Part shown: positions 654 to 29,800 of the stretch, one piece after another | Layout: each line of letters opens with the position of its first letter | Position numbering within the stretch: position 1 is the stretch's first letter | Virus record (IMG/VR): IMGVR_UViG_3300020248_000002 | Strand: one strand, 5' to 3' | Length of the DNA: 64,000 bases | Source: a virus | Notes under the pieces: model-generated | The model's input: the letters and a program-made list of their open reading frames with translations, nothing else | Databases searched by the model: none | Told to the model about the DNA's origin: nothing | Program-made: the position numbers and the translations under genes

Positions 654-810
654 ACGATTTCTAGTTCCCATCGAGGAAGATGACTATGGTGAAATGACTT
701 TTAAGATACCAGATACGATAGTTGAAGAACTTGGATGGGGAGTAGGAGATATGTTACAATATGATATAGAGGACGATCATTTTATTATCCGTAAGGCAGA
801 TGACATTTAA
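646..810 (+). CDS. AbrB/MazE/SpoVT-like DNA-binding protein, 54 aa (not in ORF track)
   Basis: Hand translation MSKRFLVPIEEDDYGEMTFKIPDTIVEELGWGVGDMLQYDIEDDHFIIRKADDI; G-x3-IP-x4-LGW-x2-GD-x-L...I-I-R-K swapped-hairpin signature; overlaps upstream stop. Confidence 0.75.
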   Translation: MSKRFLVPIEEDDYGEMTFKIPDTIVEELGWGVGDMLQYDIEDDHFIIRKADDI

Positions 811-967
811 CTCAAAAGAACTTGGTTTAATCTACAAGGCAGTAGACTTGTATAAGAACTCACTGTCACAGTATCAGTCTGTGGAGTATGAAGATTGTGA
901 AGAAATATTAGATAGAATAACACCGAATGTGTCCAGATATAGGGGACACTATGTTTGTGACCACTAG
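800..967 (+). CDS. Small hypothetical protein, 55 aa (not in ORF track)
   Basis: MTFNSKELGLIYKAVDLYKNSLSQYQSVEYEDCEEILDRITPNVSRYRGHYVCDH; overlaps the previous ORF by 11 nt and fills the gap. Confidence 0.65.
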   Translation: MTFNSKELGLIYKAVDLYKNSLSQYQSVEYEDCEEILDRITPNVSRYRGHYVCDH

Positions 968-1033
968 AGAGGCATTTAGAGGGGTCTGACGTGAGAATCG
1001 TTACCCCCGCGTCGTCGTAACTATTCTGAAATC

Positions 1034-1573
1034 GTGATGAATTTTGAACTAATCGATAACTTCCTCCCCCCGAACGAATTTGAGGAGATCCAAGACTACT
1101 TTACGGGGCAAGACTTTCCGTGGTATGTAAACCAAGCGAAGGTAATGCACGTTGCCCGAATGGTAGATCCTGAGTTGCAAGCGAAAGAGATATATAACTG
1201 GCAAATGGTAAACTACGTATATGGAGGAGGACAACCTCTAGGACCTCAGTATGAGAAGGTATTACCTATAATAAACAGATTACAACCAAGAGCACTGATA
1301 CGTATAAAGGCAAACCTAAACCACCATACAGATAAACTACAGGAATATGACTTTCATACAGACTGTGGTGAGTATGGGTCTAATGAATTTGAAGGTGCTA
1401 CCACTGCAATATACTATCTAAATGACAATAATGGTTATACATACTTTCAAGACGGTACTAAAGTTGACAGTAAGGCAAATCGTTTGCTACAATTTAAGGT
1501 GAATACACCTCACGCAGGTACCAGTTGCACAGACCAAAAGTTCCGTGTAGTATTGAATTTTAATTATTTTTAA
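1034..1573 (+). CDS. 2OG-Fe(II) oxygenase superfamily protein
   Basis: IDNFL start, HTD (HxD), TAIYYLN, NRLLQF, distal His (PHAG), R-x-V-L-N-F-N C-terminus. Confidence 0.8.
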   Translation: MMNFELIDNFLPPNEFEEIQDYFTGQDFPWYVNQAKVMHVARMVDPELQAKEIYNWQMVNYVYGGGQPLGPQYEKVLPIINRLQPRALIRIKANLNHHTDKLQEYDFHTDCGEYGSNEFEGATTAIYYLNDNNGYTYFQDGTKVDSKANRLLQFKVNTPHAGTSCTDQKFRVVLNFNYF

Positions 1574-8813: not shown

Positions 8814-11800
8814 ATGAAGTCAGTTAAGGTATCCCAACGGTTACAGGACCAGATCCCTGCGTTTATAAAAGAAGAGGATCAGTCTTTTGTAGACTTGCTA
8901 GTACAATACTACAAGTCACAGGAGAAAAGTGGTAAACCGTATGATATTTTAAACAATATTTTAAGTTATACAGATATTTCAAGTGACGAATATGATCCTA
9001 ACTTTATTTCTTCATCATCTATTGTTTTAGATCGCATAGGTGCTACTGATCAAAATATTACTGTAGAAACTGTTGATAATTTTCTTGAGAAAGATGGAAC
9101 AATAAAGATTGATAATGAAATTATTTTTTATGAAGAAACAACTAAATCACCAGAGGTTGTATTTACTCCAGGTGTCAATAAGTTAGAATTTGATAAGAAA
9201 ATACAAGAGTTAGAAAATATAAGACCTCTATTTGATGGAACTGAAACAAGTTTCCAATTAAAACTACTTGGAACTCCAATTACACCAAGTTCTGTTGAGT
9301 ATTTACGTGTTATAATAAATGGTTTGCAGTTAGAACCTAATGTTGATTATTTTCTTGATGGATCAAACATTAGATTCCAAACTCCTCCTGCAAACCTTGC
9401 AGGATCAACTACAGTAACTAAGATTGAATATCTTATAGGTTATACAAGTGTTCCTGTTAGAGTTTTAGATGTAATTAATATAACTGACGACCTTGTAGGT
9501 GCAAAAATACTTCCATTAAGGTTAAACACTGTTGTATATACACCTTTATCTACAGTATCTTGTTTGATTGCTGTAAATGGAGTGGTTCAAGAACCATTTA
9601 CTGACTACACAGTTTATAATGATCATTTAATACTAAAAAAAGCAGTATCTTTAAATGATAAGATTACTGTAAGGTCTGTTGAACTAATTGCACCTCAATT
9701 TGGTAAAGGTGCTTCTGCTATTGCTAGAGTTAGTGATAATAAAGTTACAGATTTAATTGTAAAAAATGGTGGTCAAGATTATAGAATTAATTTCACACCA
9801 AAAGTAACTATTCTTACTCCAGAAGGTGTAACTGGTAAAGAAGCGACTGCTGAAGCACTTGTAAATGGTATTAAGAATGTACAATTAATTGATGGTGGTC
9901 AAGGTTATACTTCTGCTAACCCTCCTGTAGTTGTATTTGATACACCCGCAGATCCTTCTGGTTCTATAGCAAAAGCAACTGTAACTGTTGATGATGCTAC
10001 TGGTCAAGTCACAGGAATTAACGTACAATCATCTGGATCTGGATATGACACTATTCCATCCATTAGTTTTACAAATGCAGCAGGTGCAACTATTAGTGAT
10101 GCTCAAATTGACTCGGAAGGAAAGGTAGTTGATGGATCTATCCAAGTATTAACTAAAGGATTACATTATACAACTGCTCCAGAAGTCTATATTGATGCTC
10201 CTGTTGATCCTATTGGTATTAGAGCATCTGCCATAGCAGTTTTAGATGATCAGAGCAGAGTAGACAGGATTGAAATGATTTCTCCTGGTAGAGGATATGT
10301 AACTCCTCCTAGATGTCGTATTATTGATCCTATAGGTGCTCAAATACTTGATGTTAAGGTATCTGGTGGTAAATTAACTGATATTCAACTTTTAACTGGT
10401 GGATCTGGTTACAATGATGCACCATCTGTTTATATTGTTGATAATAGAAAGAATTTATCTGGTGAAGCAATAGGTGGAACTGGAGCAACTGCTGTTGCAA
10501 CAATATTCAATGGTGAAATTACTGATATTAATATAACAAGTTTTGGTGATGGATATTCTGATACTGAACCTCCACAAGTCTTTATCGCAAGTCCAAAAGC
10601 AGCAGCAGCGTCTTGTGATGTTGGATTTCAAGAAATAACTGGTTTTACAGTTCATTCACACGGTTCTGAATATCAACCATCACAATTTAAGAATTGTAAA
10701 AGAGGAGTTTCTGGTGTTTCTTCATATGATATTAGAGGAAACCAAGTATTTACTAATGAAGCACAAAGTATTCAATCTTCACACGAAGTTGGAACTTCTA
10801 TAGAAAATTTAGATTCTTTATTTGCAAAAACACTATATGAACGTTTTGTAAATCAATTCTTACCTGATGCTGATATTGATTACACTACAATCAACGCTCC
10901 ACAGATTGTTAAGACAATTAAAGACTTTTATGTCTCTAAAGGTACAAAAACTGCTACAGAATACTTATTTAAAATATTATTCTCTGAAAATGTTGATGTT
11001 TCATATCCAAAAGATGAATTAATCAAACCATCTGCTGCAACTTGGTCTGTTGACACTATTATTCGTGTTGAATTGATAAGTGGTAATCCAGTTGATATTT
11101 TAGACTCTCAATTATTCCAATATGCAGATGCTGTAGATACAACTGTTGGAAATGCTGTATGTTTAGTTGAAAACGTTATTGCAATCAACACTGGTGATAG
11201 AACAATCTATGAATTATCAATATCTGAGGAAACTTTAGAAGGTAAGTTCTCAATACCTTATAAAACCACTCTTGTAGAACCACTAACGACAACTGAGTCT
11301 ATTATAACTGTTGACTCTACTATTGGGTGGCCAGAAAGAAACGGTATCATCATTATGGGTGATAGTGAAAGAATACAATATAAAGAAAAATCATTAAACC
11401 AGTTTATTGAGTGTACACGTTCTAAAAATGGTATTGTAGAAGATTGGGATTCTGGTACTCCAATTTACTCTGATATTTTCTGTTATATCAATAGAGGACT
11501 AGATACTGAAGTAAAATTACGTGTTCTTGGTATTGCTGAAGCAACAGGAACAGTTCTTACTGATACTGGTTCATATTATCTTCCTAGTGACAAATTAAAC
11601 GTAGCATCTCTTGGTTCTTCATCTACAGATCAGAGAGTTACATCTTGGTTATATAATGTTAAAAAATTAATCTCTGTAAACAATATTGAACCAGGTGGTC
11701 TTAATAACCAGACTGCAACTGTTTACACTACAAATAATCACGGTCTTCTTGTTGGTGACTCTGTAACAATCTATGGTGCAAACCCAACGATATTTAACGG

Positions 11801-14800
11801 TACGTTTTCTGTAACTTCTCGTATTAGTGCTACTGTATTCTCATATCAAATATCTGCTCCTGCACCTAATTCACCTCAAGGTAACATTTTGATGTCTGTT
11901 GACCTTAATAAAGGTAAATCAGATGAAGAATCAATCAATAACTCTATCGCACAATTTACAACTAATGTACAAAATACGTTCTTCAACTCAAATTACTCTT
12001 ATATTGCTACAACAGGTATTCCAAACTATAAAGTTGGTCCGTTCATTGGGTCTGCTCTACTCCCAGGAAACCAAAGAAAGTTAAGTAGATTTCCTAGAAT
12101 TGTTGATACTGTATCACGTCGTGATGATTTATCATTTGGTCCTATTGGATGTTGGGTAAATGGTGTTGCTGTTTGGTCTTATAAGTCTCAAATTAAGACA
12201 AAATTTGGTGGAATTACAAGTTTTGATATTGTAGATGCAGGTGAAGGATATGACGCTGCTTCTAAACCATTAATTGAAATAAGTGGTGGTGGTGGATCTG
12301 GTGCTGCTGCTAGTGTTGTTGTAAATGGTTCTTTATTTAATGTTGATGTAACAGCAGGTGGTTCTGGATACACCTCATCTCCATTAGTTTCTATTGTTGG
12401 TGGAGGTGGATTTGGTGCTACTGCAACTGCTGTTATTACAAATGGAGTTGTAAGTAAAGTTCTTGTTGAAACACCTGGTCAAGGGTACACCTCAGCACCT
12501 ACTGTAAGCATCTCAGGAGGCAATGGAACAGGTGCAACTGCTACTGCCGAGGTAAGAGGTCCTATTCAATCTATTAGTGTAGATACAGCAGGATCAAGTT
12601 ATACAACTGCACCTAATATTAAATTAAATTCTGGTGAAGGTGCTGTTGCACAACCAATTATTATCAATGGTCGTATTGTATCAATCGCTATTATTAACTC
12701 AGGTAGTGGATATACATCTCCTCCTAATGTAATTATTAATGGTGATGGTTATGGTGCTATTGCAAAAGCAACCATAGGAACATTTGGTGAAGATAAAGGA
12801 CGTGTTTTAAGTATTACTGTTGAGAACAGAGGTATAGGATATTCAACTGGTCTTACAACTATTCGTTGTGAATCTATTGGTCAAGGTGCATCATTTACTG
12901 CAAATGTATTTGAGTGGACACAGAACTTAGAAACTGAACTATCAGGACTAATGGATCCTTCTCGTGGTTATGTATTTGCAGGATATAACACACAATATGG
13001 TGGTGAATATGCACATTTATCAGATCCTAAACAATTACGTTATGTTCTTGGTGATAATGTATTTAAAGATCCATCATCAGGAAATCTTAGAGAACTTTCA
13101 GCAGGACTAAGACACTCTCCTATTATTGGTTGGGCATTTGATGGAAACCCAATATACGGACCATATGGTTATATTGATGCTGCTGATCAGTCATCTGGTA
13201 TTAAGAGATGTGTATCTTCTTACAGAGTAAAACCTGCGTTATTATTTGACAGTGCAACCAATCCAAATCCAGTTCGTGCTGATGGACCACTATTATCAGA
13301 CAAACCCGCAGGAACTTATATAGAAGATTATGAGTATGTGTTCCAAGCAGGTGATTTAGATCAGTATAATGGTAGATATTGTAAGACACCTGAATATCCT
13401 GAAGGAACTTATGCTTATTTTGTTTCCATTGACGCATCAGAAGCAGGTTTACCTGTATTCCCATATGTCTGTGGACCACAATTATATTCAAGACCTGACG
13501 AATGGAACTATAGTCAAGATGCTGTACAAACCAATATTCCTCTTGATGTTGTTAGATTCCGTGATCCTTATGAAGATGTTGACATTGATATTCAACGTAC
13601 ACCTAACCAAGATACAGATACTCTTGTAACTGAGATAGGTGACGAGTTTATCTTTGAAATAGAAGATACTAACAGAGATGGTGTTATATCAACAGAAGAA
13701 GAAAACGAATTAAATTATATCTCAGAAGAACCTGTACTGCAATTATTTGATTACTACCCTAGTGTATCTACTAGATCACAGGTTGATATTGAGATTGATA
13801 CTACTACTAAATTTGAAGATGCTAAAATTAGTGGATTTGTAGTTGAAAACCCAGGTATATCATATAAAGTTAATGATAAGTTGTTCTTTGACGATACAGG
13901 AACTGGTGGATATGGTGCATCTGCTAAAGTAAATGCTGTAAAAGGTATTGATGTCAGTCAGTACACTTCATCTATGGTTAATGATTCACCGTTAGCAAAG
14001 ATTACAACTACTGGTGAACACGATTTAAGAGTTAATGATGAAATTATTGTTGATAGTATTCCTATTATTGATCAAACAAACAAAACATTTAGAGTAAAAG
14101 TTGTATCTGGTGTTGAAACAGTAAATATTAGTCAACAAGGTCTTGGATATAATGATGATATTCCACCAACTTACGAAATTGTTACAGGAACTGGTCAAGA
14201 TTTTAAATTAGAACTTGTACAACTTGAATCTGGTGCTGTTAATACAGTTAATATTATTAACTCTGGATCAGAATATACACCTAGCAATCCACCAGAAGTT
14301 AGAGTAAGTCATCCACAAAGATATAAAAAAGCAAATTATGCTCTTACATTATTAGATGAGAGTAGTGGTATTGAGAAAATAGTAAAACTTAAAGATATTG
14401 TTACTGCTGATGATAGAACATTCTATGTTGTCGGTGAAGCAGATGATGTTGATGGAGATTCAGCAGGATTACTTGCAAAATTCAATAGTGATGGTAGATT
14501 GTTGTGGACACGTACAATGGCACCACTACAACCTGCTGCGGGAGATAAACGTTGTGTATTTAACAGAATTTATCTTGAAAACACATCACCACATTCTATC
14601 TACGTTGTTGGTGAAACAATTCCTAATAATGTCAACTTATCATACAATCCAGACCTAGTTGTTGCCAAATATACCTCTGGATTTGATGCACAGAACAATC
14701 CTACTGCTGTTCCTGTATGGCAACGTGAAATTGCAGGTATATCTGGTTCTTCAAGAAGAGATTATATATCATCCTTAACTATAGATGATAACGGTCAAAT

Positions 14801-17800
14801 ATACGTTGGTGGTACAACAGATACTAACTCTCCAAATCCAGATGATATGTGGATTGCTTTGTTAGATGAACAGGGTGCTATTAAAGAAAAACGTAAGATA
14901 TGTACTGCATCAGGATCAGAACAATTAACAGACCTTAAATTTACAAGTGATAACACCTGTATATTTGTTGGTGTTAATGATCCTGCGGGAACGAGTGAAA
15001 TTATTATTGGTGAAACTAACTATGATAATGTAACTATTAACGTTTCTTGGAGTAGACAGTTTGGTAATACTGGATATAGATTCTCTAATCCTAAAATTAC
15101 TATTGATGACTATGGTTCTAGATACGTAACTGCAACTGCATACCAAATTTCTAATACCAAGAATACTGGTGTTTTGTATATGAAGTTTGCACCTAGTGAT
15201 TACAAAACTCCATCAGTTGTTAAATTACTTTCACCTACTGGTGTATTTGAAGATATACAATCAACTGGAGTTAAATTTGATATATTTGGTAATATTGATG
15301 TTGGTGCATACGTTAAATATGCTTTCAATGATCATAGAGCAATCATATTCAAGATTTCTTGGAATACAAGTAATATATTAACTGCTGCTTCTGTAAAACA
15401 GGTTAGTGGTATTGGTTTCCAACCAACTACAATTAGTAACGATAATTCTGGTGATACTATTATTGCAGGTAATAAAATTGAATCTAATGAATTAGCAATA
15501 CTCAATTTTGAATCAACTATAACTGGAGATGAAACATATAATAATACTTTAACAGCAGGATGGTCTGTAGATCCTACATTAGATACTTCTAAATGGAAAT
15601 ATGGTGCACAGTCAGCAAATATCAGTGCTGCTGCGAATAGACTATCGTTAGACTGGGGTGCTGATGTAGCAACAAATTATACTATTGAAGCGTGGATCGC
15701 TATTGGGCAAGCACAATACAATGCTCAAAGTTCTACACCAAATATTTTTGATGTTGCTCCTACTACAGGTGATAATGCAGTTGTAGAACTAGAAGGTGAT
15801 GCTACAAGTCCTGATTTTGGTAAAGTTCGTTTAAAGTTAGGTTCTAATACTTACCTATCTACAACCACAACTAACTGGACAACATTTAATAACGAAGCAT
15901 TTATACACGTTGCTCTTGTTAAGTCAACTCCTGGTGTTGGTACTTACGTTTATAAAGTATTCATCAATGGTGTTGAACAAATTGATGTAACAAGTACAAC
16001 TATAGATACACAACTTAAATCTATACTATTATTTGGTAAATCATCTCCTGTTGTCGCTAGTTCTATTGGTGGTTGGGTAGATAATATTTCTGTATCAGGT
16101 ATTGCAAAATATAGTGATACATTTACTCCTGCACAAGCAGTTGGTTCTAATAAAACAGTATCTGCTTTCTGCTACAAGTTAGATAGAGAACAAACTAAGA
16201 CTGGAACATATACATTAAACACCGTTCAAACTGGTATGCAGATTCAAGTCGCAGCCGCTGTGAACGACTTTACGTTTAATACCCAGGTGATTACTTCTGG
16301 AGATTGGACATTAGGTCCTGCGGGTCTACAAATACTTGATTATGCTGATGTTGTATCAAATAATGTTGAAGGAACTTACTCATTTACGTCTACAGATCAG
16401 ATATATGAGACTAGAACTGCTACTATCCCAACACCTCTTGGTAGAAAACTACTACTAAGCACTACTGTTATTCCTAAATTCTATATTCGTGATGCAATAT
16501 ATCAGTCTATTGATACTGTAAAGACAGTAACATTTAACCAAACAGCAAACTTTACTAAAGGTTCTATATTACAACAGTATTCAGTTATTGGTGGACAAGA
16601 TGTAGTCAGTGCATACGGTACTATTGTAAATGTTCGTGGAGCACAAGGACAGGTTGATATTGGTAATATTATTGGTAATTTTGATACTACTAAGAAATTA
16701 AAATCAACTGCAAATGATGTAAACCTTATTAATCAAACATTTTTAGTTGAAACAACTATACCTCAATGGTTTACAAACTTCAGTTATACAACTGGAGATG
16801 AAGTTTATAATGCAGGTAAGATCTATACAGCAGGTTCTACTGGAGTTTCTGGTGCTAGTGCTCCTATTCATACGATTGGTACAGTAACTGATGGAAATAT
16901 AAACTGGGTATATACTCGTGATGCAGGTAGTTTTAATATAGATCTTGCAAATACTTCATATTCTAGTGGAACATTAAATCAATTTGGTTCTTGGAGACCA
17001 TTTGTAGCAACAGATTACTCAATTAGAATTGAAGCAGTATATGAGGGATCAGCATTTATTAAAGGTGATAACATTGATGCTGACGCTGTTGGTCTTTCAG
17101 CAACATTCGATGCTACTGGAAAGATAATAACAATATCAGGTTTAGTTGGAGTTAAGAAATTCCATCTTACATCGAATCTTGATAAAGATATTATTCCAAC
17201 TGGTGCTCTAGCATTTACAGATTTAGTATTCTGTGTTTCTACAAGTAGGCATAATTTTACTCAAAACGAAATTATATTTGTTGAAGGATTTACAACAACT
17301 GAATATGGTGGATCATTCTTTGTAGAAGAGGTTCTTGATAGTAGAAGATTCTTATATCGTTTAAGATCAACTGCTGTACAAGATCCTTCATTTACAAGTT
17401 CTACTATTGCAAGTGTTAATATCTACGCTAAACATCCACAATTATTATTTGTTCGTAAACATCAATACATATTTGACCTTGATGATCCATCTAATTTTGG
17501 ATATTATATGTCGTTCTCTAAGGATAATCAATATAAATTAGAATATCCTTTTGTAAACATTGTTAGAGAGGGTATCCCAGGTTTAACTGACCAAACATCA
17601 CCTAAACCACTTGTTAAGTTTATTGTTGATGAAGATGTTACCAATATTTCATATTACTTCGATCCATCAAGAACTCTTCCAAGTAACTCTCCTGTAGGTG
17701 AAGCATCATTTATTGACGTTATAGAAACTCCTTATAAAGGAACATTTAATATTAATCAGATATTATCAGATACAGAATTTACATTCCCACTTCTTGTAGA

Positions 17801-20800
17801 ACCAGAAAAAACAACTGCTCCTTTAGGAACAACTGAAACAGGTCTTACAAGAGCATCTTATAGTACAACTTCTCTAAAAGCGATTGGTCCTATTGCAAGT
17901 ATCAAACTGGTAAACCCAGGTGGTTTCTATCAGAAATTACCTATTGTTACTGATATATCATCTGATAGAGAAATTGAGAAAATACGTATCATATCTGGTG
18001 GTACAGAATACATTAATGGCATCTATTATAATGTTCCTATTGCAGGAGATGGTGAAGGTGGTCTATGTAATATTACAGTTGCAGATGATGGTGAATTAAC
18101 AGGTGTTATTACTGCTGTTGAATTAACATCTCCAGGTAAAGGATATACTACTGCATCTATTGATATTGATACTATTCCAGGAATATTGGGATCACTATTA
18201 CAAGGTTCTGGTGGACAACTTGATGTTGTAATTCCTGCTGAGGGATCTGGTGCATCTGTGTTCTTACAAGGTACAAGTATTGGTAAGATTAAGAAACTTA
18301 AAAATAATGAATTTGGTTTCGGTTATTCTCACGATTATACACTAAGACCTGAGATTACATTCCCTGTAAACCTTCAGTTGTTTAATACTGCTATACTTTC
18401 TGAAATTAAGGTTACAGATCCTGGTTCTGGTTATACATCAATTCCTAGAGTTGTTATTGAAGGTGGTGGTGGATCAGGTGCTGAAGCAGAAGCGATTGTT
18501 AAAAATAATAGACTATCTGAAATAATAATTAAAAATCCTGGATCTGGATATAGTTCTGAACCATCAGTTACACTTAAGTCAGAATTTAACTATGTTGTAA
18601 ACCTTGATTTAGGATATTTACAGTTTAACTTCCCACACGGTATTACAACTGGTGCTGCTGTTCAACTTAGAGCAGAAGATTTAGGATCTACAGTTGGTGT
18701 TCTACCAAAACCAAGTTCAGCAGGTTTGGTTAGTTTAAGTTCTACAACCACTTACTATGCTATTGCAGGTGAGGCAAATTCACTTGAAGCAGACCAACTT
18801 AGAATAGCACTAACACAAGTTGATGCTGAGTCTGGTAACTTTATTACATTCTTAACTCAAGGTGATGGTCGTCAGATTCTTCTTACTGAAGTATTTGGTG
18901 GTCAAGCAACTGCTATTGTACAAACATCTCGTTTCTTAAAAGGAGAACTTGTATATCAAGGTTCATCCCTAGAAACTGCTACTGCAACAGGTTACGTTTC
19001 AGATAATGAAGGTTGGCAGATTGGTCCTCGTATATTAAAACTTGAAAACTATAACGGAAATTGGACTGTTGGAGAACGTGTAACTGCACAGGTATCTCGT
19101 GCATCTGGTTTGATTGATAACTTATCTATTGCTCGTGGTACATTGAATATAGACTCAATGACAACCACTACTGGTCAGTTTATTGATGACATTGGTAAAC
19201 CATCTGAAATTGTACAGAAAATTCAAGACTCTTACTTCTATCAGAACTTCTCTTACGTTATTAAATCACAAACTCCTATTAACGAATGGAGAAAGAGTAT
19301 TCTTGAAACCAATCACCCAGTTGGATTCAATATGTTTGGTGAATTGGCACTTGCAGCAGGTAAAGATATATCAGGAAGAAAGGTTGTATCTGATCTTGTT
19401 AAAGAAGTTAATATCTTTAGTGCTACTAATATTAATCAGATTACATCTTTTGCTAACTCACAACCAATATATACCGAGTTTAATAACACTGAAGTATTAT
19501 TCAGACAAAGAAGACTTACTAACTCTGAAGAAATCTTAACTTCTATTGTTAAAAAACTTGATAATATTGATAATGACTTTAATGGTGTTAAAACACAATT
19601 CCCATTGACTGTAGAAGGTGAATCTGTAACTGCAACTGATGATCAATTATTGATTCTTATTAACGGTGTTGCCCAGTCACCTGGAACTGCATTCACAACA
19701 TCTGGTCCATCTGTTGTATTCTCAGAACCACCTAAAGCACCATCAAGAATTAAGTTTAGAAATCTTACATTCTCTCAAATTAATATTATAAGATATACAT
19801 TTAGTACAACATCTGGTATTTTCCCACAAACAGGTAAACCTGTAAGGTCTTTACAGAACGAGGGAACTGCAACTGTCATTGATAGTGGTGTAGATTACAT
19901 TGATGTTATCGATGTAGAAGGTACTTTCCAGATTGGTGACAATGTTTTAGCGTCATCTAGTGGATTTGATGGTACATTAAGTGCTGTAACTGGTTTAACT
20001 AGCAAAACAATTTACGAACAAGGTGAAAGAATAACAAATTTACAAGGTGATTTTGCAATTATTGAAGAAAATAACCTTAGAGATGGTGTTGTAGACGCTA
20101 GATTGGTAGTTTCTCGTACATCTGGTACATCTGAATTTGAAACTGGTGACTTTAATATCAAATTTAACGACACAATATACTCTGCTGCATCTAAAATTGC
20201 TGCAAGAGTTACTGTAATTGCACCATATACAGACGATGTATCTCAACAAATCATTGATACTGTTGATTTATCACCTCCATCATCATTCTTTGGTCTAATT
20301 TTCCAACGTGTTCCTTCAATTACCTATCCAAATACTATCTTAGACAATATTTCTGAGACAGTTATCAATCCAGAAGAACTATATGAAGAGGGAACTGCTA
20401 ATAACCAAGACTTCTTAGACTTTGAAGAGGTAAGAAACCAAGAAATTAGATATAATTATCTGTCAGGATCACAATTTGTAGCAGGTGACTCAATACGTAA
20501 CAAACAAATCTACTATGATAACGCTTCATTAGTAGGTGTAGACGATCAACGTTCATTTGATGCTGCTGTATTGATAAGAAAGAATGCTAGATTCATTGCT
20601 GAAGAAGCAGTTGGATTAATGAAGGCATTTTTCCCATCATTTGTAGTTCCATCATTAGGTGGAGATAGAGATTGTGAAGATGATATTGTAGATATTTTAA
20701 ATATTGTTGCATATCAATTAGAAGTTGATGGTAACTCAGAAATCTGGGATGCTGCTAGTACATATGTACAGGGTAATGCAATATATCACGTTGATGGTGA

Positions 20801-23800
20801 AGTAGCACAAACAATATACGCATTTAACAAAGCACGTGATTTAGCGATACAGTGTATCCGCAATGAAGTTATTAATACAACTACCACTAATCTACCTCAA
20901 TATAGAGATCCTACTATCACAGAAGAGTTTGCTGTTATAAGCAATAGTCACGGTGATGCAAGAGATTTAATTCTTGCTAATAAATGGTTCATTGCATATG
21001 AAGCATTACATTATGCTAAAACACAAAATCCAGGATATAACGTATCAGGTGGAGATGTTCATTGTTTATCTGATATTGTTGATGTTCTTGAAGCGATGGT
21101 TTATAACTTAGCACACGGTGGTAATAACTTTGTATATAAAGCAACTAAGAAAACTCTACAGTATGGTGTAACATCTGGTGATAGAGATACTATTGTAGAT
21201 GCTTTTACTAAGGCAAGAGATATTGCTATTGAAGTAATGAGAAATAATGCTTGGACAAAAGCAGGATCTCATAACTGGAATCAAGTAACTGATACATCTA
21301 TAACCGCTGATCCTGCAAACCCAACTTGTCAGGCAGTTGCATCAGCAATTACTACACTAATGAATATTTTGATTACTAATCTTGGATCAACTGCATCTCC
21401 AGGAACAGTAGCAGCATTTGAAGCAGCAGTAACTGAGACTGCACCTTCTGGAGCGTATGCAGGATATACTAACAGTTGTGTTAATCAGGCAAATGCTATA
21501 ACATCCTATATGAGAATCATTACTGATACTCTAGAGGATCCTACAGGTGGCACTCCTGCAACATATCAGTGGGCAATTACTAATGTACCTCGTGTTCTTC
21601 CTCCTTATGCTTTTGTGGATGGAGAAACTTTACGTTGTGCTAAACACGCTTATAGAGATAAATCATCTGGTGGATTCTTTGTATTTGGTGATACTGTAAG
21701 AGCAGTTACATCAGGTGCAACATATGATGTTATTGGATCTAATGCAGGTAACAAGTGGATCTTCTCTAAACAGATTAGTGGTGTATTACAAGCAGGTGAG
21801 TACATAACCAACTCTAAACTTACATATGCAAACGTATCTCAAGATAAATTAACATTTAAAACTGATTCTGGTTCACTTAGATTTACTGGATCTGGTTCAT
21901 ATGCTACTTTCCCATCAAGTAATGCTGTATTATTTGGTGATGGAGCAGATGCTGCTACTGGTGACTATACAATGGAATTATGGATACGTCCTGCTTCTGT
22001 TACTGGCACACAGAGACTTATTGATCTTAGAGAGTCATCTTCTGACACTAAGTTAGGTATATTGATGTCTGGTCAGTCACTTCGCTTATCTATAGGTGCT
22101 AGTGATGTAATTACTGTTAGTTCTGCTATTACTACAATCAATAACTGGTATCATATTGCAGTATCTCGTTCTACAAGTGTTACTAAACTGTTTGTAAATG
22201 GTCAGCAGATGGGTACATACACTGATACAAACAATTATAATGCAAATAGTAAGATTACTGTTGGTGCAGGATGGAACAATGGTAATCCTTTCAATGGTTG
22301 GATTGATAATCTTATAATCCGCAAAGGAATTTCCCAGTACAATAGTAGTTTTACTCCCCCTATTATCTTTAACGATAGTACAGATGTATCATTCGCACTT
22401 CTTGGTGAAGCACCATTCCCTATGGAACAGAGTGCAGTATATGCAACATACGTTAATCATATAATATCTACTGCTACTGCTGATGAAGTTGAGCTATGGC
22501 GTTCTGAACTTACAACTGAAGGTGTTGATCTTAGTCGTGAAGAATATAGAATATGTGCTGAAGTTATACGTAAGAATATTGACTATATTGCTGAAGAAGC
22601 AGTTGGTCGTCTTAAGTATAGATACCCTGATTTTGTCATCCCTGGTGATGGTGGTATGAGTGGTTATGGATCTAATGTTTGTCTACGTGATACTAAATCA
22701 TATATTATTCCTGCTATAATTGACGATCTTATATCAGGTGGTAACTTCCAAACAACCATTGTTGGTCGTGCTTACATTGAAGGATCTGGTGCATTACAAC
22801 ATATTGGTGGTGAGCAATTACAATCAATCTATACTTGGAGAGAAGTTGCAAAACTTTGTATTGATGTAATTACATTAGATGAAGCAGATTTAGAAGGAAC
22901 TTATTCAACTAAAGTTCGTGTTCCTAATTATTTTGCATCTCCTGCATCTTCACAGATACAAACTGATATTATGACTCTTGTAGATGATCTATTAGATGTT
23001 ATAGGTCCTACAGGTCATAGATTTAGAGATGGTGCTGATTTAATTTACTTTAATAGAAAAGCAATCGCTGATGAAGCAGTATATTATATTGAAAACAAAT
23101 ATCAAGTACAAGTTGGTTTCTCAACAGTAAATAAACTAACAATACCTAATAGAGCAAAATGTGTAAGAGATATTAGAGATCATATACTTCCTGCTATTGC
23201 AGGTGACTTGGTTACAGGTGGTAACTTTGAAACTCAAGCAATGATTGATAGTTATCTCGATAATGAGACTAATATCAATTATATTGAAGATGAATTGCTT
23301 GCAATGATTGATGCGATTGAATATGCTAAGAAGTTAGCACAAAAAGCAATACAAGGTTTATTAATTGGTAGAAATGAGAACCCTGCTCAAGTCGCTGCTG
23401 ATTTCTCTGATTACTATCAGATGTTATACACAGATGAGTCTGTTTATCGTGACGATACTATTACAATAGATCCTAAAGCATATACTGGATCTGATAGAGA
23501 TCTTGACGCTGCAAATCTTTTACAGCAAAATGCTAAGACCATTGCAGGTGAAGCAGTTGATATTCTAACTAAAACATCGTTTGCACAATCTAAGAAGTTT
23601 AGAGTTCCAGGTGGTAAAGTTAACTGTGAAGATGATATTGTTGACATCATCGAATCTGTAGCACACGATTTACGTTTTGGTGGTAACAGCGAGACATATG
23701 ATGCTGCTGCTTTATACTTAAATACTGATTTAGCATTAAGTCACGTAACTAATCAATCTGATGAGACAATCTATGCGTTTAAGTTAGCAAGAGATATGTC

Positions 23801-26800
23801 AATCCTAACCATCAGAAACCGTTTAGGGTTTACTCCCTATGAGAGTGAGGCAGCAACAGGTGGATTAGGACAAGCAATACAGAGACCTGATTACTATAAT
23901 AATGCTACAACCAATGGTTACTATGATGCTGCAAATGAAATTGAAAATAATATAAGATTTATCGCTACAACTGCTGTTGGTCGTGGTATGTCTCAGTATC
24001 CTAATTTGGCATTCTCTGGTGGTTATAATTATCAGTCTTGTGTTGATGACGTTGTAGATTTACTTGAAGCATTAGTATTCAACTTAAAGCACGGTGGTAA
24101 CAACCGTATGTGGTATTCAAGTGAGTTCTATATTACAGTTGGAAATGCTATACAGCATATTAGTAACCAAGCAGCAGAAGTTAAATATATCTTTGAACAA
24201 GCAAGAGATATTGCAATACAAATAATGAGACAGCAGATTGTTACAATTAATGGTGTAACAGAAGGAAGTGCAATATATGATTCTAGTATTACTATTGATG
24301 GTACTAATACAACAGTTGGTAACTTAACTCCAACAAATGTAGAATACTTCCCAACTACAGGTAATTTAAGACTTACTGTTAATGGTCATAACTTAACTAC
24401 AAGTGATAGTATTCAACTTGCTCAAAACTCATTAACATTTACTTGTGATTTTGATGGTAATGCAACAAACCATACATATCCAAGACCATTAGATCCTTCT
24501 AGCGGTGCTTTATTACCAGTTACAGCATTTACTACAAATACATTTACAGTAAATGTAGGAACTACTGCTAACGGAACTCACGATGTTACTGATGCAATAT
24601 ATGAAGAAGCAACTGGTAATCTATTCTTAGATATTGGTACAAATAATCTTAATGTTGGAAGACATATTAAGTTCTCTCAAGATTATGCAATAACATTTAC
24701 TTGCACAAAAGATGGTAATACTACTAACCACGCATATCCTCGTCCTACTGACTATGCTAGTGGTAAATCATTAGAAGTTTTAGAAATTAGTGATTCTGCG
24801 TTTACAGCAACAGGAGCAACATATTCACCTACTACTGGTGCTATGACCCTGACTGTTCCTCAACACGGATTTAGTAATGGTGATCAGATAAGACTTGTTA
24901 ATAATTCATTGAACTTCACTTGTACAATGGATAACAACTATAGTGTACATTCTTATCCTCGTGCTAGTGATCCTGCATCAAACCAGTATCTAACAATCAG
25001 CAACGTTGCTACAAATACTTTTGATGTAAACGTTGGTTCTACAAATACTCTAAATTATACTCCATCAAATGTTGTTTACAGTCCTACTACAGGAGATATG
25101 GTTATCACAATCGGTAATCACAGTCTTGTTCCTGGATCACACATTAAGATTGCTGATAATTCATTAATATTTACTTGTTTAGAAGATAATAATGCTACTG
25201 AGCATTCATATCCTAGAACAACAACTACAATACATCAGAGCACTGCTGCTGTATATGAACCTACTACAGGTATGATGCAGTTGACTGTTCCTCAACACGG
25301 ATTTGCAAATGGTGATCAAATTAAGATTGCAACTGATTCTCTAACATTTACTTGTGGTCAAGATAACAATCAAACAAATCATACATATCCACGTGCTACT
25401 GACCCTGCTGCTAATTCTTGGTTAGAAATTTCAGATGTAACTGCAAATACATTTAAAGTTCAAGTTTTATTATCTACTGGAATACCTTCAACAAATACAA
25501 CACCACACACATATGTTTCTTCTGCTACAAATAATATTACTTGGAAGAAAGATAGAGCATATGATGTTCCTTTAGAAGTAAAAGCAGTTGGTCAAACAAC
25601 TATTACAGTTAATGTTTTAGCATCTGGAAGAATCCCATCTACTAACGTAACTACTCATACATTTGTAAATGCTGCAACAAATGCAATAAGTGCAGGTGGA
25701 AATTACACTCATACATTCATATCTGCTGCACCTGGAGGTGTTAGATTTAAGAATGGACGTATTAAGGTTAATGTAAACCCTGCACCTACAAACGAACAAT
25801 ATCCACATACATTTGTAAGTGCTGTTTCTGGTGCTGTATCTTATGGTGGTAATCATCCTCACAACTTTGTAAGTGCTAATACTAATGCTATAACCTTTAT
25901 TATTGGTGGTGGTGGAGTTCGTTGTGTAAATGAAGCAGCGTCTATAACAACATTAATGGGTATTCCTATCAATCTATTTGATAGTAGTAATACAAGTAAT
26001 CCTACAGCATATCTAAATGGAATTACGAGAACATTACCACTCGAATGGCCACTTACAGGTGAACGTGCTATTAGACGTGACGTTTCTATAACTTACGATT
26101 CAGCAGGTAACGGAAACTGCACCACACAGAGTTCAGCGATTAATACCCTTTGGGAGATACTTATTAATACTATTGATACTGCTGCTCAAGGAAATGGTAG
26201 TCATCTTGCAACTATAACCAGAACTGCACCTGTCACTAACAACACTGTATATAAAGGTGGAACTTGTTACGATGTCACATCTGCTGCACACGTACTATTC
26301 AAGACACTTCTTCACGGTCTTGGAAGTGGCACAGAGATGTATAAACAATCTGCAAGATTATTAATATACAATGACACATATACTCGATTAGAATCATATG
26401 AGAAAACTTTAAATCAATATCCTGGTTATGCAGGAGATGCTTCGTTTGCTGAACCAATACAAAAAGCGATTGTATATGACTTCATTACAAATGGTAATGC
26501 TAGGACTTTACAATTAGTTAACTCTTGGTTTGATGCTGATGGTAATTTCGTAGCATACCCAACACTCTTTAGAACTCGTCTTCTTTATCACGCAAGAATG
26601 ATTAAAGAGTTGATGGATCATATCTTAAAAGGAACTGCACCTGATCCTGGTGTAAATGCTAACCAACCTCTTTATTCACTTGATGGAACTAATCCTGATA
26701 GAGAATTACGTCCTACTGCGACTGCATCTCATAAGTTACATCAATTATTCCACTTAATATTAACTGCGTTACAATACTCACAATTCCCAACAACATACTT

Positions 26801-29800
26801 AAGAACACAATTTGACGCAGGTGTTGCTGTTTATGATGGAGTTATTAATGTTGCTAATAACTTTGAACCATATGATAGAGTTGCTTATATTGTTCTAGGA
26901 TCTAATATTCCAGAACTTGATGGAACAACCTATTATGTACATCCTAATTCAACATCTAATAAGATAGTTCTTACAGAATATATTGATGGAGAACCAATAT
27001 ATCTAAGTCCAGGTCTAGCATCACAGTTACATACACTCGCTGTTGAAGTAGATCCAGGTGTAGATCGTGTACCTACAACTTATGGAACACGTGATGTACC
27101 AACACCAATCAAAGCAGGTTTCAACCTTGCTGATGTTATCTACGGTGGAACATCTGGTGCTACTGCTCAGATAGTTCGTATGGAAGATAATTTAGCAGAT
27201 ATTATGTATCAGGCAAAATATATGACCTGTAATACATTCTCTGCACAAGGTGGTGGAACTGGAATCAAGATTCAGAATGGTGAGACAGTTGTTGTTCAAG
27301 GTGCTACTCAAAATACTGGTAAGGTTCTTGCTACTGATAACGAGACATATATTAAGTTGATTGATTACAATGGAACATTTACAGCAGGTGATACTATAGA
27401 AGGTGTTACATCTGGTGGTACTTGTACATTTGCTGATGAGCACGATAGACTTCTTGTTAATTTCCGTCAGGGTGAATTTATTGCAACTGATAAGTTCTTC
27501 TCTACAGATACTGGATCTAAAGCAACTGCTCTAATTGTTAGAAACAATAACGGTGCACTAATTGATAATCAGAGTGGTAGAATCACTTACGACATCACCA
27601 CAGTAACTGGAGAGTTTAAACCCCAAGATGTTATCTATGGATCTGTTACTGATCAAATTATTGAAATTGAATCTTTTGTTACTCTACCTAATTTTGGTGA
27701 GTATGTACACGGTAGACAAATTACAAGACTTACATATGTTCAGTTAATTACTGATACAGGTGTTACTGATACATTTAATGTTGGTGATGTATTACAGGTT
27801 CAATCTGGTGGTATTAGTATTGGTTGGACAGTGACTGTTACTGAGATTGATACAAATAATAATTACGTATTTGTTGCAAATGAAACTGGAACTCCAGAAG
27901 GTGTAACTATTTCTGATATTGCAAGTAATTCACAATATCAACTTGCTAAAGTACCAGTTGGAACTCTATTCCCATCCGTATATACAGGAGTTGCAGCAGT
28001 TACAATAACAGATACAACAGCATACGGTAAGATTGCTAAGATTACACAGTTTGGTACTCGTGCTGTTCTCCACTTAGAAGGAACAAGTGGAACATTCCAG
28101 AAGAACTCACAAATTATTGGAGACAATGGTTTCAAAGGTGCTTGTTCATCTGCTAGATCTTTAAGAGGTAGAGTACGTAGATTCTTTAGAGGATTTGATG
28201 GTGTACAAAAGGCATTTAAACTAACTCAAGGAAATGGTACACAATACTTCCCAGATCCCGCAGGACATATGATGATCTTTGTGAATGGTATCTTACAACC
28301 ACCTGGTGCTGACTACGCATTCACAGCATTCTCAGATAACATACAGTTTACTGAAGCACCTGCTATAGGATCAACTTTCCACGGTGTATATAAAGGTAAG
28401 TTAAGACAATTAGATGATATATCATTCGACTTTGATTCATTACGTAACTCATTCAACTTAAAGTTAAATGGAGTGTTCTACTCATTGACTTTAACTGATG
28501 GTGTACAATCAAATACAATCTTACCTGAGAACAATATTATTTGTCAGTTAAATGGTGTTATACAGGAACCTGGAATTGGTTTTGAAATTGTTGGTTCTAG
28601 AATTATCTTCTCTGAAGTTCCTCGTGCAGGTTCAACCTTCGTTGCATTCTCTTATGTTGGTTCTGATGTTGACGTTATTGCAGCAACAGTTGTACCACCT
28701 ATTGAAGCAGGTGATGAACTTATCATTGATGGTGAGGAAGAAACAAGAACAGTTGCTCTTATTGAATCATCTAACTCTCTAATTACATTTGAGTATGGTG
28801 GAGCAGTTAAAGGACGTAATGCTTCTGCACTTGCTGAAATTGAAAAAGGACGTATTACCAATGCGATATTAACAAACTCTGGTGATGGTTATAGTACAAG
28901 ACCACAAGTTGATGTTATATCTTCAACAGGATTTGGTGGACGTATTAAGGCACTTGTTGGTGTAGCAAGAATTGATGTTAAGAACGCAGGTCAAGGATAT
29001 TCATTACCTACTATTGTTGCAAATACAACTGTTGCAGATGATTTCTTAGGACCTACAGGACCTGCATTAAATGGTGGTATTGATATTTACGATCCTAACT
29101 TCATACCTGTAACAGGTGGTACTGGAGTCATAGAGAACTTTATAACAATAACTGAATCACCTAGAAATATTACTGTTAACCAAGGTCAGACTGCTACATT
29201 CCAAGTTGCAGCAAAAGTAACAATATCTAATGTTGTTGCTTATCAAATTAATGTTGCTGATAAGTCTGTTAACCATCCTTACTATGGTCAAGGATCTGGA
29301 AAAGGTTATAACTTTACTGGTGGTCAATTTAATTCAAGCACTGAAGCACCAACACTTGTATTTGTTCGTGGAGCAACATATCAGTTTAATCAAAACGATG
29401 TTACCAATGCTACTCACGCACTTTACTTTAGTGAAGATGCTACTGCTTATGGTGGCAATAGTAGATATGAGACTGGTGTTGTATATCGTCTTAACGGTAA
29501 TCAAGTTGCAGACTACGCAACATATGCTGCGGGATTTAATGCTGCTACAACACGTAGTGTTAGCATTACAGTCGCTGCTGATGCTCCTGCTACTCTTAAT
29601 TACGTATGTGGTAATCATCAGTATATGGGTTCAGCAATTAACGTTAACAACGGAACTCTTTCATATCAGTGGCAGAAAAAAGATTATGGAACATCAAGTT
29701 GGAACAATATCACTGGAGCAATTAGTTCTACATATACAACTGCTGCTACTACACAGGCAGATACAAATGATGAATATCGTGTTGGTATCACATCTAACGG

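What the first reader, a model, noticed from the sequence alone, without database searches (positions are those of the whole stretch)
23019..26324. The nested beta cassette itself sits at the tip of three nested helical repeats (eight levels in total)
Seen: a helical module D(A/G)A-x-L-x3-N-x2-I-A-x-EAV...C-x2-D...L-x2-GGN...AR-D...(R)D-x2-IT-x-D...C-x6/7-I-x2-L opens three times (RFRDGADLIYFN, DLDAANLLQQN, YYDAANEIENN) before any closing helix. Three closing segments then follow the beta cassette: RCVNEAASITTLM, RRDVSITYD..NCTTQSSAINTLW and TCYDVTSAAHVLF. The second head lacks the RD-x2-IT-x-D segment and the second tail supplies it, as nesting predicts. Inference: head and tail Cys could form a disulfide that clamps each level.
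Basis: partly seen in the sequence, partly recalled or inferred. Interest (0 to 1): 0.75.

Follow-up and report, generated by a model that had tools for sequence, protein, structure and literature searches.

The report
Nested pigment-protein-fold domains in cyanophage baseplate
A giant baseplate protein of a marine cyanobacterial virus holds three copies of the host's light-harvesting (phycobiliprotein) fold inserted one inside another, with a five-deep nest of small beta domains at the tip; the conserved cysteines match pigment-attachment sites rather than a disulfide clamp.

Summary
Every quoted motif is at the stated place in a 7,028-aa gp7-like baseplate protein (ORF 8814-29900) of a T4-like cyanophage. 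Own profiles find three ~110-aa heads, a 549-aa beta cassette, then three ~40-aa tails.

The nesting is supported.
- In an AlphaFold2 model (pLDDT 81), solved phycobiliproteins align across head F plus the first tail, and globin sensor domains across head E plus the second tail. That is reverse order. Level D follows only by elimination.
- Orthologues 57-70% identical over the region carry 0, 124, 549, 2,224 or 2,548 aa at the same point, just before the tail cysteine.
- Where the innermost head gained a helix-1 Cys, the first tail after the insert lost its Cys.
- The beta cassette also looks nested (levels 1, 3 and 5 seen), so eight levels is plausible.

The disulfide clamp is not supported. 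The module is phycobiliprotein-like. The head Cys-x2-Asp aligns with bilin site Cys82/Asp85, and the tail Cys aligns, weakly by sequence, with beta-Cys153. These lie in separate pockets in known structures. One relative keeps the head Cys with no partner. Cys-Cys distances could not be measured.

This scan found the same nested fold in other cyanophage genomes. I found no paper describing it.

The parts
8814..29900 (+). Giant gp7-like baseplate wedge protein, 7,028 aa (P0001), host of all parts below
   Evidence: Single ORF. It lies between a gp6-like gene (phrog_219) and other baseplate wedge genes. DNA matches to cyanophage genes annotated gp7 / virion structural protein. A 98%-identical homologue has the same length.
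23016..23363 (+). Head D (aa 4735-4850): helices A to G of the outermost phycobiliprotein-like domain; Cys4783 in KCVRD
   Evidence: Head profile E 3e-32. Helices 6-117 in the model.
23445..23471 (+). G-H loop strand of level D (YRDDTITID, aa 4878-4886), just before head E starts
   Evidence: Matches the phycobiliprotein beta segment D-x-x-G-I-T-x-G-D in the weak second alignment.
23496..23822 (+). Head E (aa 4895-5003); Cys4938 in NCEDD; no RD-IT strand on the head side
   Evidence: Head profile E 5e-36. Globin sensor domains align to model 159/161..1061/1067, which is head E plus the second tail.
23916..24239 (+). Head F (aa 5035-5142); Cys5076 in SCVDD
   Evidence: Head profile E 2e-35. Phycobiliprotein chains align to model 301..994-1003, which is head F plus the first tail.
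24273..24299 (+). G-H loop strand of level F (IYDSSITID, aa 5154-5162), followed by the cargo insertion point
   Evidence: Orthologues without an insert run from this strand straight into the tail Cys.
24321..25910 (+). Beta cassette (aa 5170-5699): five E1-FCCH-like beta units with five openers (..FTC..H-x-YPR) and five closers (H-T-F-V-S-A..), themselves nested
   Evidence: Openers and closers located. Structural matches span model 435..972, 598..918 and 742..849 with only 77-85 aligned residues each. PHROG tail-fibre and virion families match.
25911..25994 (+). Tail F (aa 5700-5727): helix H of level F; Cys5704
   Evidence: Tail profile E 6e-9. Model helix 976-992, pLDDT about 90. It is the last aligned part of the phycobiliprotein matches.
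26073..26189 (+). Tail E (aa 5754-5792): RRDVSITYD strand plus helix H of level E; Cys5769
   Evidence: Tail profile E 6e-16. Model helix 1041-1062. It is the end of the globin-domain matches.
26217..26333 (+). Tail D (aa 5802-5840): helix H assigned to level D by elimination; Cys5818
   Evidence: Tail profile E 5e-12. Model helix 1090-1107. No structural match spans level D.
20550..21548 (+). Separate two-level nest A/B (aa 3913-4245): head A, complete inner module B, tail A
   Evidence: AlphaFold2 pLDDT 84, pTM 0.75. Phycoerythrin beta 5aqd_M gives Z 15.9 with 149 residues aligned over model 1..335 (outer domain A). ApcE 4xxi_A gives Z 14.0 over 136..291 (inner domain B).
22542..23018 (+). 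Uninterrupted module C (aa 4577-4735): helix-1 Cys4581 present, tail Cys absent
   Evidence: Pfam PF00502 18.9 bits on this module alone.
26337..26633 (+). Seventh, divergent head (aa 5842-5940) lacking the head Cys; its tail is not detected by the profile
   Evidence: Head profile E 7e-18. Column 40 is Phe.

Best explanation
Residues 4735-5840 of the gp7-like baseplate protein form a recursively nested array of domain insertions. The helical module is a phycobiliprotein-like globin domain without the N-terminal X and Y helices. The 'head' is helices A, B, E, F and G, and the 'tail' is helix H.

Each of three such domains (D, E, F) is interrupted in its G-H loop, within a few residues of the tail cysteine, by the next domain. 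The innermost one (F) carries a 549-aa cargo of five FCCH-like beta units that are nested in the same way. The chain then returns through helices H of F, E and D in that order, closing each domain.

Inferred function: a there-and-back stalk on the baseplate wedge that holds an exchangeable cargo at its tip while the chain continues into the last ~1,200 residues of the protein. Cargo length differs widely between close orthologues (0 to about 3,400 aa), as expected for a host-contact part.

The conserved cysteines are the counterparts of the two bilin-attachment sites of phycobiliprotein beta subunits (Cys82 with Asp85; Cys153 beside Asp39). They are not a disulfide pair.
For: Shown:
1. Heads and tails are real repeats, in the order (((cargo))).
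2. An AlphaFold2 model of aa 4730-5845 built with a 65-row alignment has pLDDT 81.2, and the tail helices score about 80-95.
3. VIA-align against 48,161 solved chains puts phycobiliproteins at ranks 1-8. 5aqd_M has Z 15.2. ApcE 4xxi_A has Z 14.0, rmsd 1.9 A and 116 aligned residues over model 301..997. Chains 1b8d_A and 8imk_G align to their own C-terminal ends. This equals head F plus the first tail, skipping about 550 residues.
4. Globin sensor domains (4zva_A Z 10.6, 133 aligned; 4uiq_A, 8h17_A, 5ohe_A, 2w31_B) span model 159-161..1061-1066. This equals head E plus the second tail.
5. The separate A/B nest gives the same result for an outer level. 5aqd_M has Z 15.9, rmsd 2.6 A and 149 aligned residues over 1..335, while the inner module occupies 136..291.
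6. Natural experiment: orthologues 57-70% identical over the region have an uninterrupted level F (P0025, P0037, P0048) or inserts of 124, 549, 2,224 or 2,548 aa at the same point, between the D-x-x-IT-x-D strand and the tail Cys.
7. Marker: in P0020, P0011 and P0076 the last head has gained a helix-1 Cys, and the first tail after the insert (2,751 aa in P0020) has lost its Cys. The second and third tails keep theirs. The same swap occurs independently in the uninterrupted module C.
8. Fold identity: a profile of 43 uninterrupted modules hits only phycobiliproteins among the 60 best solved-chain matches shown, best E 1e-5. The head Cys and Asp align to K-C-L-R-D of phycoerythrin and phycocyanin alpha. 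PF00502 is the only Pfam family hit, in 8 of 43 modules, and scores 31.7 bits on the whole C-terminal part against a cut-off of 22.2.
9. In the 43-module alignment the only invariant residues are the head Cys, the Asp three residues after it, one Gly and one tail Leu.

Inferred: the stalk and cargo-display function.
Against: - The 3D evidence is a prediction. The aligner reports only the first and last aligned residue, and no coordinates are available.
- Level D is paired with the third tail only by elimination. No structural match spans it, and no relative has an uninterrupted D-type module.
- Z values of 10-16 are within reach of unrelated helical bundles, according to the tool's own note. 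The phycobiliprotein assignment therefore rests on structure and sequence profile together.
- Single modules score below Pfam's cut-off.
- The alignment of the tail Cys with beta-Cys153 is weak by sequence alone (0.1 bits).
- My tail profile misses divergent tails, so many homologues look unbalanced.
- Nothing shows what the cargo binds.
Confidence: 0.8

Rival explanations
1. Disulfide clamp: the head Cys and the tail Cys of each level form a disulfide that locks the closing helix onto its head.
For: Typical modules have exactly two conserved Cys. Among 84 non-redundant pairs whose head carries the head Cys, exactly one of helix-1 Cys or tail Cys is present in 82. That could be read as a disulfide partner that moved. 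Virions sit in oxidising seawater (general knowledge).
Against: - The head Cys aligns with phycobiliprotein Cys82/84 on helix E. The tail Cys aligns, weakly by sequence, with beta-Cys153 in the G-H loop, and the fold matches at rmsd 1.9-2.6 A.
- In solved phycocyanins these two sites hold separate bilins in separate pockets, about 34 A apart centre to centre. This figure is from my own memory; I could not find it in the papers read.
- The position of the helix-1 Cys aligns with beta-Ala40, next to Asp39. From memory, Asp39 lines the Cys153 pocket, not the Cys82 pocket.
- P0062 has 17 heads, each with one Cys (K-C-x-R-D), and the tail stretches I read contain no Cys.
- The Asp three residues after the head Cys is as conserved as the Cys itself. 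A disulfide does not explain that.
Confidence: 0.1
2. No nesting: the heads are self-sufficient helical domains in tandem, and the three tails form a separate small bundle, pair with heads in the same order, or complement heads of a neighbouring subunit.
For: Sequence alone fixes only the counts, not the pairing. The RD-IT argument concerns the middle level and fits both orders. The split-chain test of head D with tail D gave no answer (not evidence either way).
Against: - Uninterrupted modules always have head plus tail as one ~155-aa unit.
- Orthologues show level F closed by the first tail whether or not an insert is present.
- The Cys-swap marker links the last head to the first tail.
- Structural alignments need the distant helix to complete a globin or phycobiliprotein fold for levels F, E and A.
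Confidence: 0.06
3. The module is only a generic globin-like helical bundle. Its likeness to phycobiliproteins is convergent or too remote to carry meaning for the cysteines.
For: Single modules fall below Pfam's cut-off. A single module finds no phycobiliprotein in the solved-structure sequences. Level E matches haem-globin sensors better than phycobiliproteins. The X and Y helices are missing.
Against: The profile search hits only phycobiliproteins among the 60 best matches shown. The invariant Cys-x2-Asp sits exactly on their attachment motif, and D-A sits on beta Asp39-Ala40. PF00502 is the only family found. Phycobiliproteins fill the top eight structural ranks for two independent models. 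The host range (cyanobacteria) offers a source for the fold.
Confidence: 0.12

Closest known systems
Phycobiliproteins (Pfam PF00502), especially beta subunits (CpeB/CpcB) and the bilin-binding domain of ApcE
   Same: Globin-like fold: Z 14-16, rmsd 1.9-2.6 A over 116-149 residues. The C-x-(R)-D motif sits at the Cys82/84 position, D-A at beta 39-40, G-G-(N/T) at the end of helix E, and D-x-x-IT-x-D...C-x6-I-x2-(L/Y) at the G-H loop and helix H. From memory, ApcE also tolerates a large loop insertion between helices B and E. Relatives P0076 and P0085 have inserts in that same loop.
   Different: There are no X and Y helices, so no alpha-beta dimer or ring is expected. The domains are parts of a 7,028-aa virion protein, are inserted in one another at the G-H loop, and are only 9-18% identical to solved chains. 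Pigment binding is untested.
Si3 insertion of cyanobacterial RNA polymerase, cited as six-level nested domains in a survey of 2.7 million classified domains (PMC13114784)
   Same: Recursive insertion of like domains into like domains, so that the chain runs out and back.
   Different: A different fold, in a cellular enzyme. Here two unrelated folds are nested in series (3 helical plus 5 beta, 8 levels if the model holds), and the innermost cargo varies from 0 to about 3,400 aa between close relatives.
T4 gp7 baseplate wedge protein
   Same: Gene position after the gp6-like gene and among wedge genes. Relatives are annotated gp7 in cyanophage records. There is a weak Baseplate_wedge match near the N-terminus.
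   Different: About seven times longer than T4 gp7 by my recollection. The region studied has no counterpart I know of in T4 gp7. The Pfam match is below the cut-off (21.1 against 27 bits).
E1 FCCH-type small beta barrels and phage fibre beta modules
   Same: The beta units match 4p22_B and 2v31 (E1 FCCH; Z 8.1 and 6.7, 77-78 residues aligned), an N4 tail protein and the phi92 endosialidase. PF16190 matches the inserts of orthologues.
   Different: Here the units are inserted one inside another rather than standing in a row.

Membership tests
Phycobiliprotein family (PF00502) | Sequence match above the curated cut-off | tested here: inconclusive
   Summed over the repeats, the score is 31.7 bits against a cut-off of 22.2. 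The best single module scores 18.9 bits. Eight of 43 modules match at E <= 0.01, and no other family matches. A profile of the modules against solved chains gives E 1e-5, with only phycobiliproteins among the 60 best matches shown.
Phycobiliprotein family (PF00502) | Globin-like core of helices A, B, E, F, G and H | tested here: met
   Phycobiliprotein chains hold ranks 1-8 for two models, with Z 12-16 and rmsd 1.9-3.2 A for the core-only matches (two full-length matches have rmsd 4.1-4.7 A). These are predicted models, not solved structures.
Phycobiliprotein family (PF00502) | N-terminal X and Y helices that make the alpha-beta monomer | tested here: not met
   Modules start at the helix aligned to residue ~33-39. 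Chain ranges of most matches start at residues 26-50. Only ~10-30 residues separate one module from the next.
Phycobiliprotein family (PF00502) | Attachment Cys82/84 with Asp85/87 on helix E | tested here: met
   Cys and Asp are invariant in 43 diverse modules and are aligned to K-C-L-R-D and K-C-A-R-D. They occur in 110 and 115 of 128 non-redundant heads.
Phycobiliprotein family (PF00502) | Covalently bound bilin | not testable with these tools
   This needs spectroscopy or mass spectrometry of virions or of expressed modules.
Nested domain insertion (A1-B-A2, recursive) | Host domain split in sequence but one compact fold in space, with the guest wholly inside the gap, repeated level by level | tested here: met
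   Levels F, E and A appear as discontinuous domains in the predicted models. Beta levels 1, 3 and 5 do likewise. Orthologues with and without the guest exist. Level D is assigned by elimination only.
T4 gp7-type baseplate wedge protein | Homology to the gp7 core and a place in the wedge gene cluster | tested here: inconclusive
   The gene cluster context is met. PF23786 scores 21.1 bits, below the 27-bit cut-off. Relatives are annotated gp7 by depositors.
Disulfide-stapled domain | Two cysteines that always occur together and lie within bonding distance | tested here: inconclusive
   Co-occurrence fails in P0062, which has the head Cys only, and in module C, which has no tail Cys. The distance could not be measured, and mapping onto phycobiliproteins argues against proximity (own knowledge).

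The most novel reading that the evidence does not exclude
The nested domains are working bilin-binding sites. The virion's baseplate arms would carry covalently attached bilins at the Cys82-type and Cys153-type positions, made by the phage's own bilin reductase (a PF05996 gene lies in this window at 57134-57823). In related phages a CpeT-type lyase might attach them; from memory, its known target is the Cys153 site.

This would give a purpose to cyanophage pebS/pcyA/ho1/cpeT genes, whose role is called a mystery or unresolved (PMC3037559). It could also make the particle light-responsive.

The paired shift of Cys and Asp in the second site fits a ligand pocket better than a structural role. 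Heads with a helix-1 Cys have C-x-D in 5 of 5 cases, against D at the usual position in 77 of 123 other heads.
Probability: 0.3. Interest if true: 0.92.

Novelty: new variant of a known kind. Interest (0 to 1): 0.72.

Why it matters
If the model holds, eight levels is deeper than the six-level nest that a survey of 2.7 million domains cites as its example of complex nesting (PMC13114784). It also combines two unrelated folds in one nest.

It shows a simple rule by which giant phage proteins can grow. The rule is to insert a domain whose ends lie close together into a tolerant loop, then repeat.

It also gives a natural scaffold that tolerates 0 to about 3,400 residues of cargo at one point. 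That is of interest for understanding how cyanophage host-contact parts diversify, and for protein design.

Separately, a host light-harvesting fold with its pigment-site residues intact in a virion protein makes an old question directly testable. The question is why cyanophages carry bilin-synthesis genes and bilin-lyase-like genes.

Tried and rejected
- Foldseek of the whole 1,116-residue model against the PDB gave only meaningless long alignments with TM about 0.06.
- A single module searched by sequence against solved structures found no phycobiliprotein. Only the profile did.
- Complex prediction with head D and tail D as separate chains gave no answer (score 0.02), which is not evidence either way.
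- I compared the A/B nest with relatives that have two tandem modules at the same place, to see which tail belongs to which head. The modules were too divergent to decide.
- I searched for a relative with an uninterrupted D-type module. There was none, because D always hosts E.
- Further iteration of my head profile on the second protein set drifted or over-reached, giving long runs of heads without tails. I therefore used the earlier profiles. The imbalance in P0062 comes from divergent Cys-less tails that my tail profile misses, and possibly from a truncated record.
- Three papers were read for the Cys82-Cys153 or bilin-bilin distance. The number was not found, so it stands on my own memory.
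- Literature searches for a phycobiliprotein-like domain in a cyanophage structural protein, or for nested insertion in phage fibres, found nothing relevant.
- CpeT (PF06206) was not found in the 112-kb record. The record is only 63% complete, so this shows nothing.
- The ESM Atlas shape search added only modest support. A 160-aa cluster partly labelled PF00502 matched at TM 0.66.


Full report
**Setting.** The window is a late-gene region of a T4-like cyanomyovirus.
- The finding's DNA matches Prochlorococcus and Synechococcus phage genes annotated gp7 or virion structural protein.
- The neighbouring genes are baseplate wedge genes.
- The finding lies in one 7,028-aa ORF, 8814-29900 (+).
- The record is a 112-kb viral contig, estimated 63% complete.

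**Observation.**
- I aligned the six obvious heads and six tails of the protein, built profiles and iterated them on 120 giant homologues.
- In the window's protein the profiles find heads at aa 3913, 4044, 4577, 4735, 4895, 5035 and 5842 (E 7e-18 to 4e-40).
- They find tails at aa 4158, 4207, 4698, 5690, 5755 and 5802 (E 6e-9 to 6e-16).
- They find nothing in any other gene of the window.
- The order is () -334- (((-549-))) (. The three heads do open before any tail, and three tails follow the beta cassette.

**What the module is.**
- Pfam gives one family for this part of the protein, PF00502 Phycobilisome. It scores 31.7 bits summed over the repeats, but at most 18.9 bits for one module.
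- A profile of 43 diverse uninterrupted modules (alignment A1) was searched against all solved-structure sequences. All 60 best matches shown are phycobiliproteins, best E 1e-5.
- In that alignment the module's first helix lies on residues ~35-62, with D-A on beta Asp39-Ala40.
- The invariant Cys-x2-Asp lies on K-C-L-R-D, the Cys82/84 attachment site with Asp85/87.
- A weak second piece puts D-x-x-IT-x-D...Cys on beta N-D-P-N-G-I-T-x-G-D-Cys153 and helix H.
- PF00502 is the only family that individual modules hit, in 8 of 43.
- So the head is helices A, B, E, F and G, the tail is helix H, and the X and Y helices are absent.

**Test of the nesting by structure.**
- I aligned aa 4730-5845 with orthologues and partial relatives (A2, 65 rows) and ran AlphaFold2. 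The model has mean pLDDT 81.2 and pTM 0.60, and the three tail helices lie at model 976-992, 1041-1062 and 1090-1107.
- Foldseek on the whole model was useless.
- VIA-align against 48,161 representative chains put phycobiliproteins at ranks 1-8.
  - 5aqd_M has Z 15.2. 8or7_A has Z 14.2. ApcE 4xxi_A has Z 14.0 with rmsd 1.9 A over 116 residues. 8imk_G and 1b8d_A also match.
  - Their model ranges run from 301-303 to 994-1003, and their own ranges run to their C-terminal ends.
  - Model residue i is protein residue 4729+i. The match is therefore head F plus the first tail, with about 550 residues skipped.
- Haem-globin sensor domains (4zva_A Z 10.6 with 133 aligned; 4uiq_A, 8h17_A, 5ohe_A, 2w31_B, 2bnl_A, 3zta_A) span 159-173 to 1061-1067. 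That is head E plus the second tail.
- No row spans level D, so its pairing with the third tail rests on elimination.

**An outer level seen directly.**
- I folded the separate two-level nest at aa 3907-4249 (A3). The model has pLDDT 84.3 and pTM 0.75.
- Phycoerythrin beta 5aqd_M aligns 149 residues at rmsd 2.6 A (Z 15.9) over model 1..335.
- ApcE and other chains align to 136..291-295.
- So domain A is residues 1-~125 plus helix 317-335, wrapped around a complete domain B.

**Test by comparison of relatives.**
- Among the 120 homologues the bracket strings are nearly all valid nestings, apart from tails my profile misses.
- The orthologous three-level nest occurs with an innermost gap of 14-16 aa, meaning no insert (P0025, P0027, P0030, P0037, P0039, P0043, P0048, P0050, P0054).
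- It also occurs with inserts of 124 aa (P0019, P0021, P0022), 548-558 aa (the window's group and P0015-18), 2,224 aa (P0012) and 2,548 aa (P0003). P0011 has about 3,400 aa.
- The junctions show one exact insertion point, between the D-x-x-IT-x-D strand and the residue or two before the tail Cys. Both flanks are conserved.

**The cysteine-swap marker.**
- A second, independent marker gives the order.
- In uninterrupted module C and its orthologues, the tail Cys is missing and a Cys replaces the Ala of D-A in helix 1.
- The same swap has happened at level F in P0020, P0011 and P0076. There the head with the helix-1 Cys is the last head.
- The Cys-less tail is the first tail after the insert (2,751 aa in P0020). 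The next two tails keep their Cys.
- Same-order pairing would put the Cys-less tail third.

**Beta cassette and the count of eight.**
- The cassette has five openers (F-T-C at model 480, 566, 639, 724, 783) and five closers (H-T-F-V-S-type at 836, 886, 904, 936, 954).
- Small beta-barrel structures align with only 77-85 residues over three model ranges.
  - 435..972 corresponds to opener 1 with closer 5.
  - 598..918 corresponds to opener 3 with closer 3 (E1 FCCH 4p22_B, Z 8.1).
  - 742..849 corresponds to the uninterrupted fifth unit.
- P0019's 124-aa insert is one complete unit.
- Five beta levels on three helical levels is therefore plausible. Levels 2 and 4 are inferred, and I did not pursue this part further.

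**The cysteines.** The tools return no coordinates, so I could not measure distances. The evidence is indirect but points one way.
- (a) The head Cys is the Cys82/84 counterpart and the tail Cys is the beta-Cys153 counterpart. The fold matches at about 2-2.6 A.
- In phycocyanin these two sites hold different bilins, one facing the inside of the ring and one the outside, about 34 A apart. This is from my own memory and was not found in the papers read.
- (b) The Asp three residues after the head Cys is as invariant as the Cys. This fits the bilin-site pair and is not explained by a disulfide.
- (c) The alternative Cys sits at the position aligned with beta-40, next to Asp39. From memory, Asp39 belongs to the Cys153 pocket. 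The swap therefore keeps a Cys in the second pocket and does not bring a partner to the first.
- Heads with the helix-1 Cys have Asp two residues later in 5 of 5 non-redundant cases, while the usual Asp is kept in 1 of 5 (small numbers).
- (d) P0062 has 17 heads, each with the head Cys as its only Cys, and the tail stretches I read contain no Cys.
- (e) Among 84 non-redundant pairs whose head carries the head Cys, 82 have exactly one of helix-1 Cys or tail Cys. A moving disulfide partner would also give this pattern, so I keep the clamp at about 10%.

**How it most likely works.**
- Shown or predicted: each phycobiliprotein-like domain is a host interrupted in its G-H loop, and the chain goes out through three heads, through the beta nest, and back through three H helices.
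- Inferred: the array is a stalk on the baseplate wedge that presents an exchangeable cargo at its far end.
- The large variation in cargo between orthologues that are 57-70% identical over the region fits a host-contact part. The cargo's likeness to fibre and spike beta modules fits too.
- Relatives also carry inserts in the loop between helices B and E (P0076, P0085). From memory, ApcE carries its own loop insertion there.

**Comparison with what is known.**
- Domain insertion is common, and recursive nesting is rare.
- A 2026 survey of 2.7 million classified domains names six-level nesting in cyanobacterial RNA polymerase as its example of a complex nest (PMC13114784).
- I found no paper on phycobiliprotein-like domains in cyanophage structural proteins or on nested fibres.
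- Notes of this scan report the same nested fold in gp7-like and fibre proteins of other cyanophage genomes. Three notes on this same stretch raise the phycobiliprotein reading, the two-level nest and the beta nest.
- I reached the Pfam match before reading them, and I tested the A/B nest and part of the beta nest myself.

**Pigment question.**
- The window carries a ferredoxin-dependent bilin reductase gene at 57134-57823, just upstream of the large terminase gene.
- Sullivan et al. 2010 call the role of phage pcyA and pebS a mystery. They found cpeT in 12 of 16 cyanomyovirus genomes, with its role unresolved (PMC3037559).
- Intact site residues in a virion protein make pigment binding a fair hypothesis, at about 30%. 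Nothing here shows it.

**Verdict.**
- The nesting is supported: strongly for levels F, E and the A/B pair, and by elimination for D.
- The total of eight levels is plausible.
- The disulfide clamp is not supported.

Noticed in passing
window 57134-57823 (+): A ferredoxin-dependent bilin reductase gene (PF05996, 165 bits) lies directly upstream of the large terminase gene (57823-59472). It follows a 2OG-Fe(II) oxygenase gene (55950-56567) and an SNase-like nuclease gene (56667-57131). A pigment-synthesis gene thus lies among late structural genes, 27 kb from the phycobiliprotein-like domains.
   Followed up: partly
window 26337-26633 (aa 5842-5940) and downstream to about aa 6010: A seventh phycobiliprotein-like head follows the nest. 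It has Phe in place of the head Cys and no tail that the profile detects. A Cys-less helix further on (H-K-L-H-Q-L-F-H-L-I-L-T-A-L, its position not located) may be its tail. Orthologues share this Cys-less copy.
   Followed up: partly
homologues P0076 (aa 5373-5802) and P0085 (aa 5575 onward): In these relatives one head is itself split after the P-x-L-x-I-N-G-G loop by inserts of about 100-314 aa. This is a second permissive insertion point, between helices B and E. From memory, it is the same place as the loop insertion of ApcE.
   Followed up: no
homologue P0062 (5,098 aa): Runs of 3, 5, 3 and 6 consecutive heads (S-S-S-W-S...K-C-x-R-D type) stand only 10-18 aa apart. They are followed by Cys-less tails of the form S-S-F-x-x-I-x-D-I-I-x-x-G-T-x-S-L-P, which my tail profile misses. 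The nests appear deeper than in the window's protein and have one Cys per module.
   Followed up: partly
window about 21918-22313 (aa 4369-4500): A Laminin_G_3 / concanavalin-like lectin domain (PF13385, 71-75 bits) lies in the 334-aa gap between the A/B nest and module C. A YHYH domain (PF14240, 106 bits) lies at aa 1393-1540.
   Followed up: no
window 20550-21548 (aa 3913-4245): The outer domain A of the two-level nest carries an extra Cys in helix G (L-A-I-Q-C-I-R-N). The same column holds Cys in 17% of all heads, including module C (K-L-C-I-D-V).
   Followed up: no
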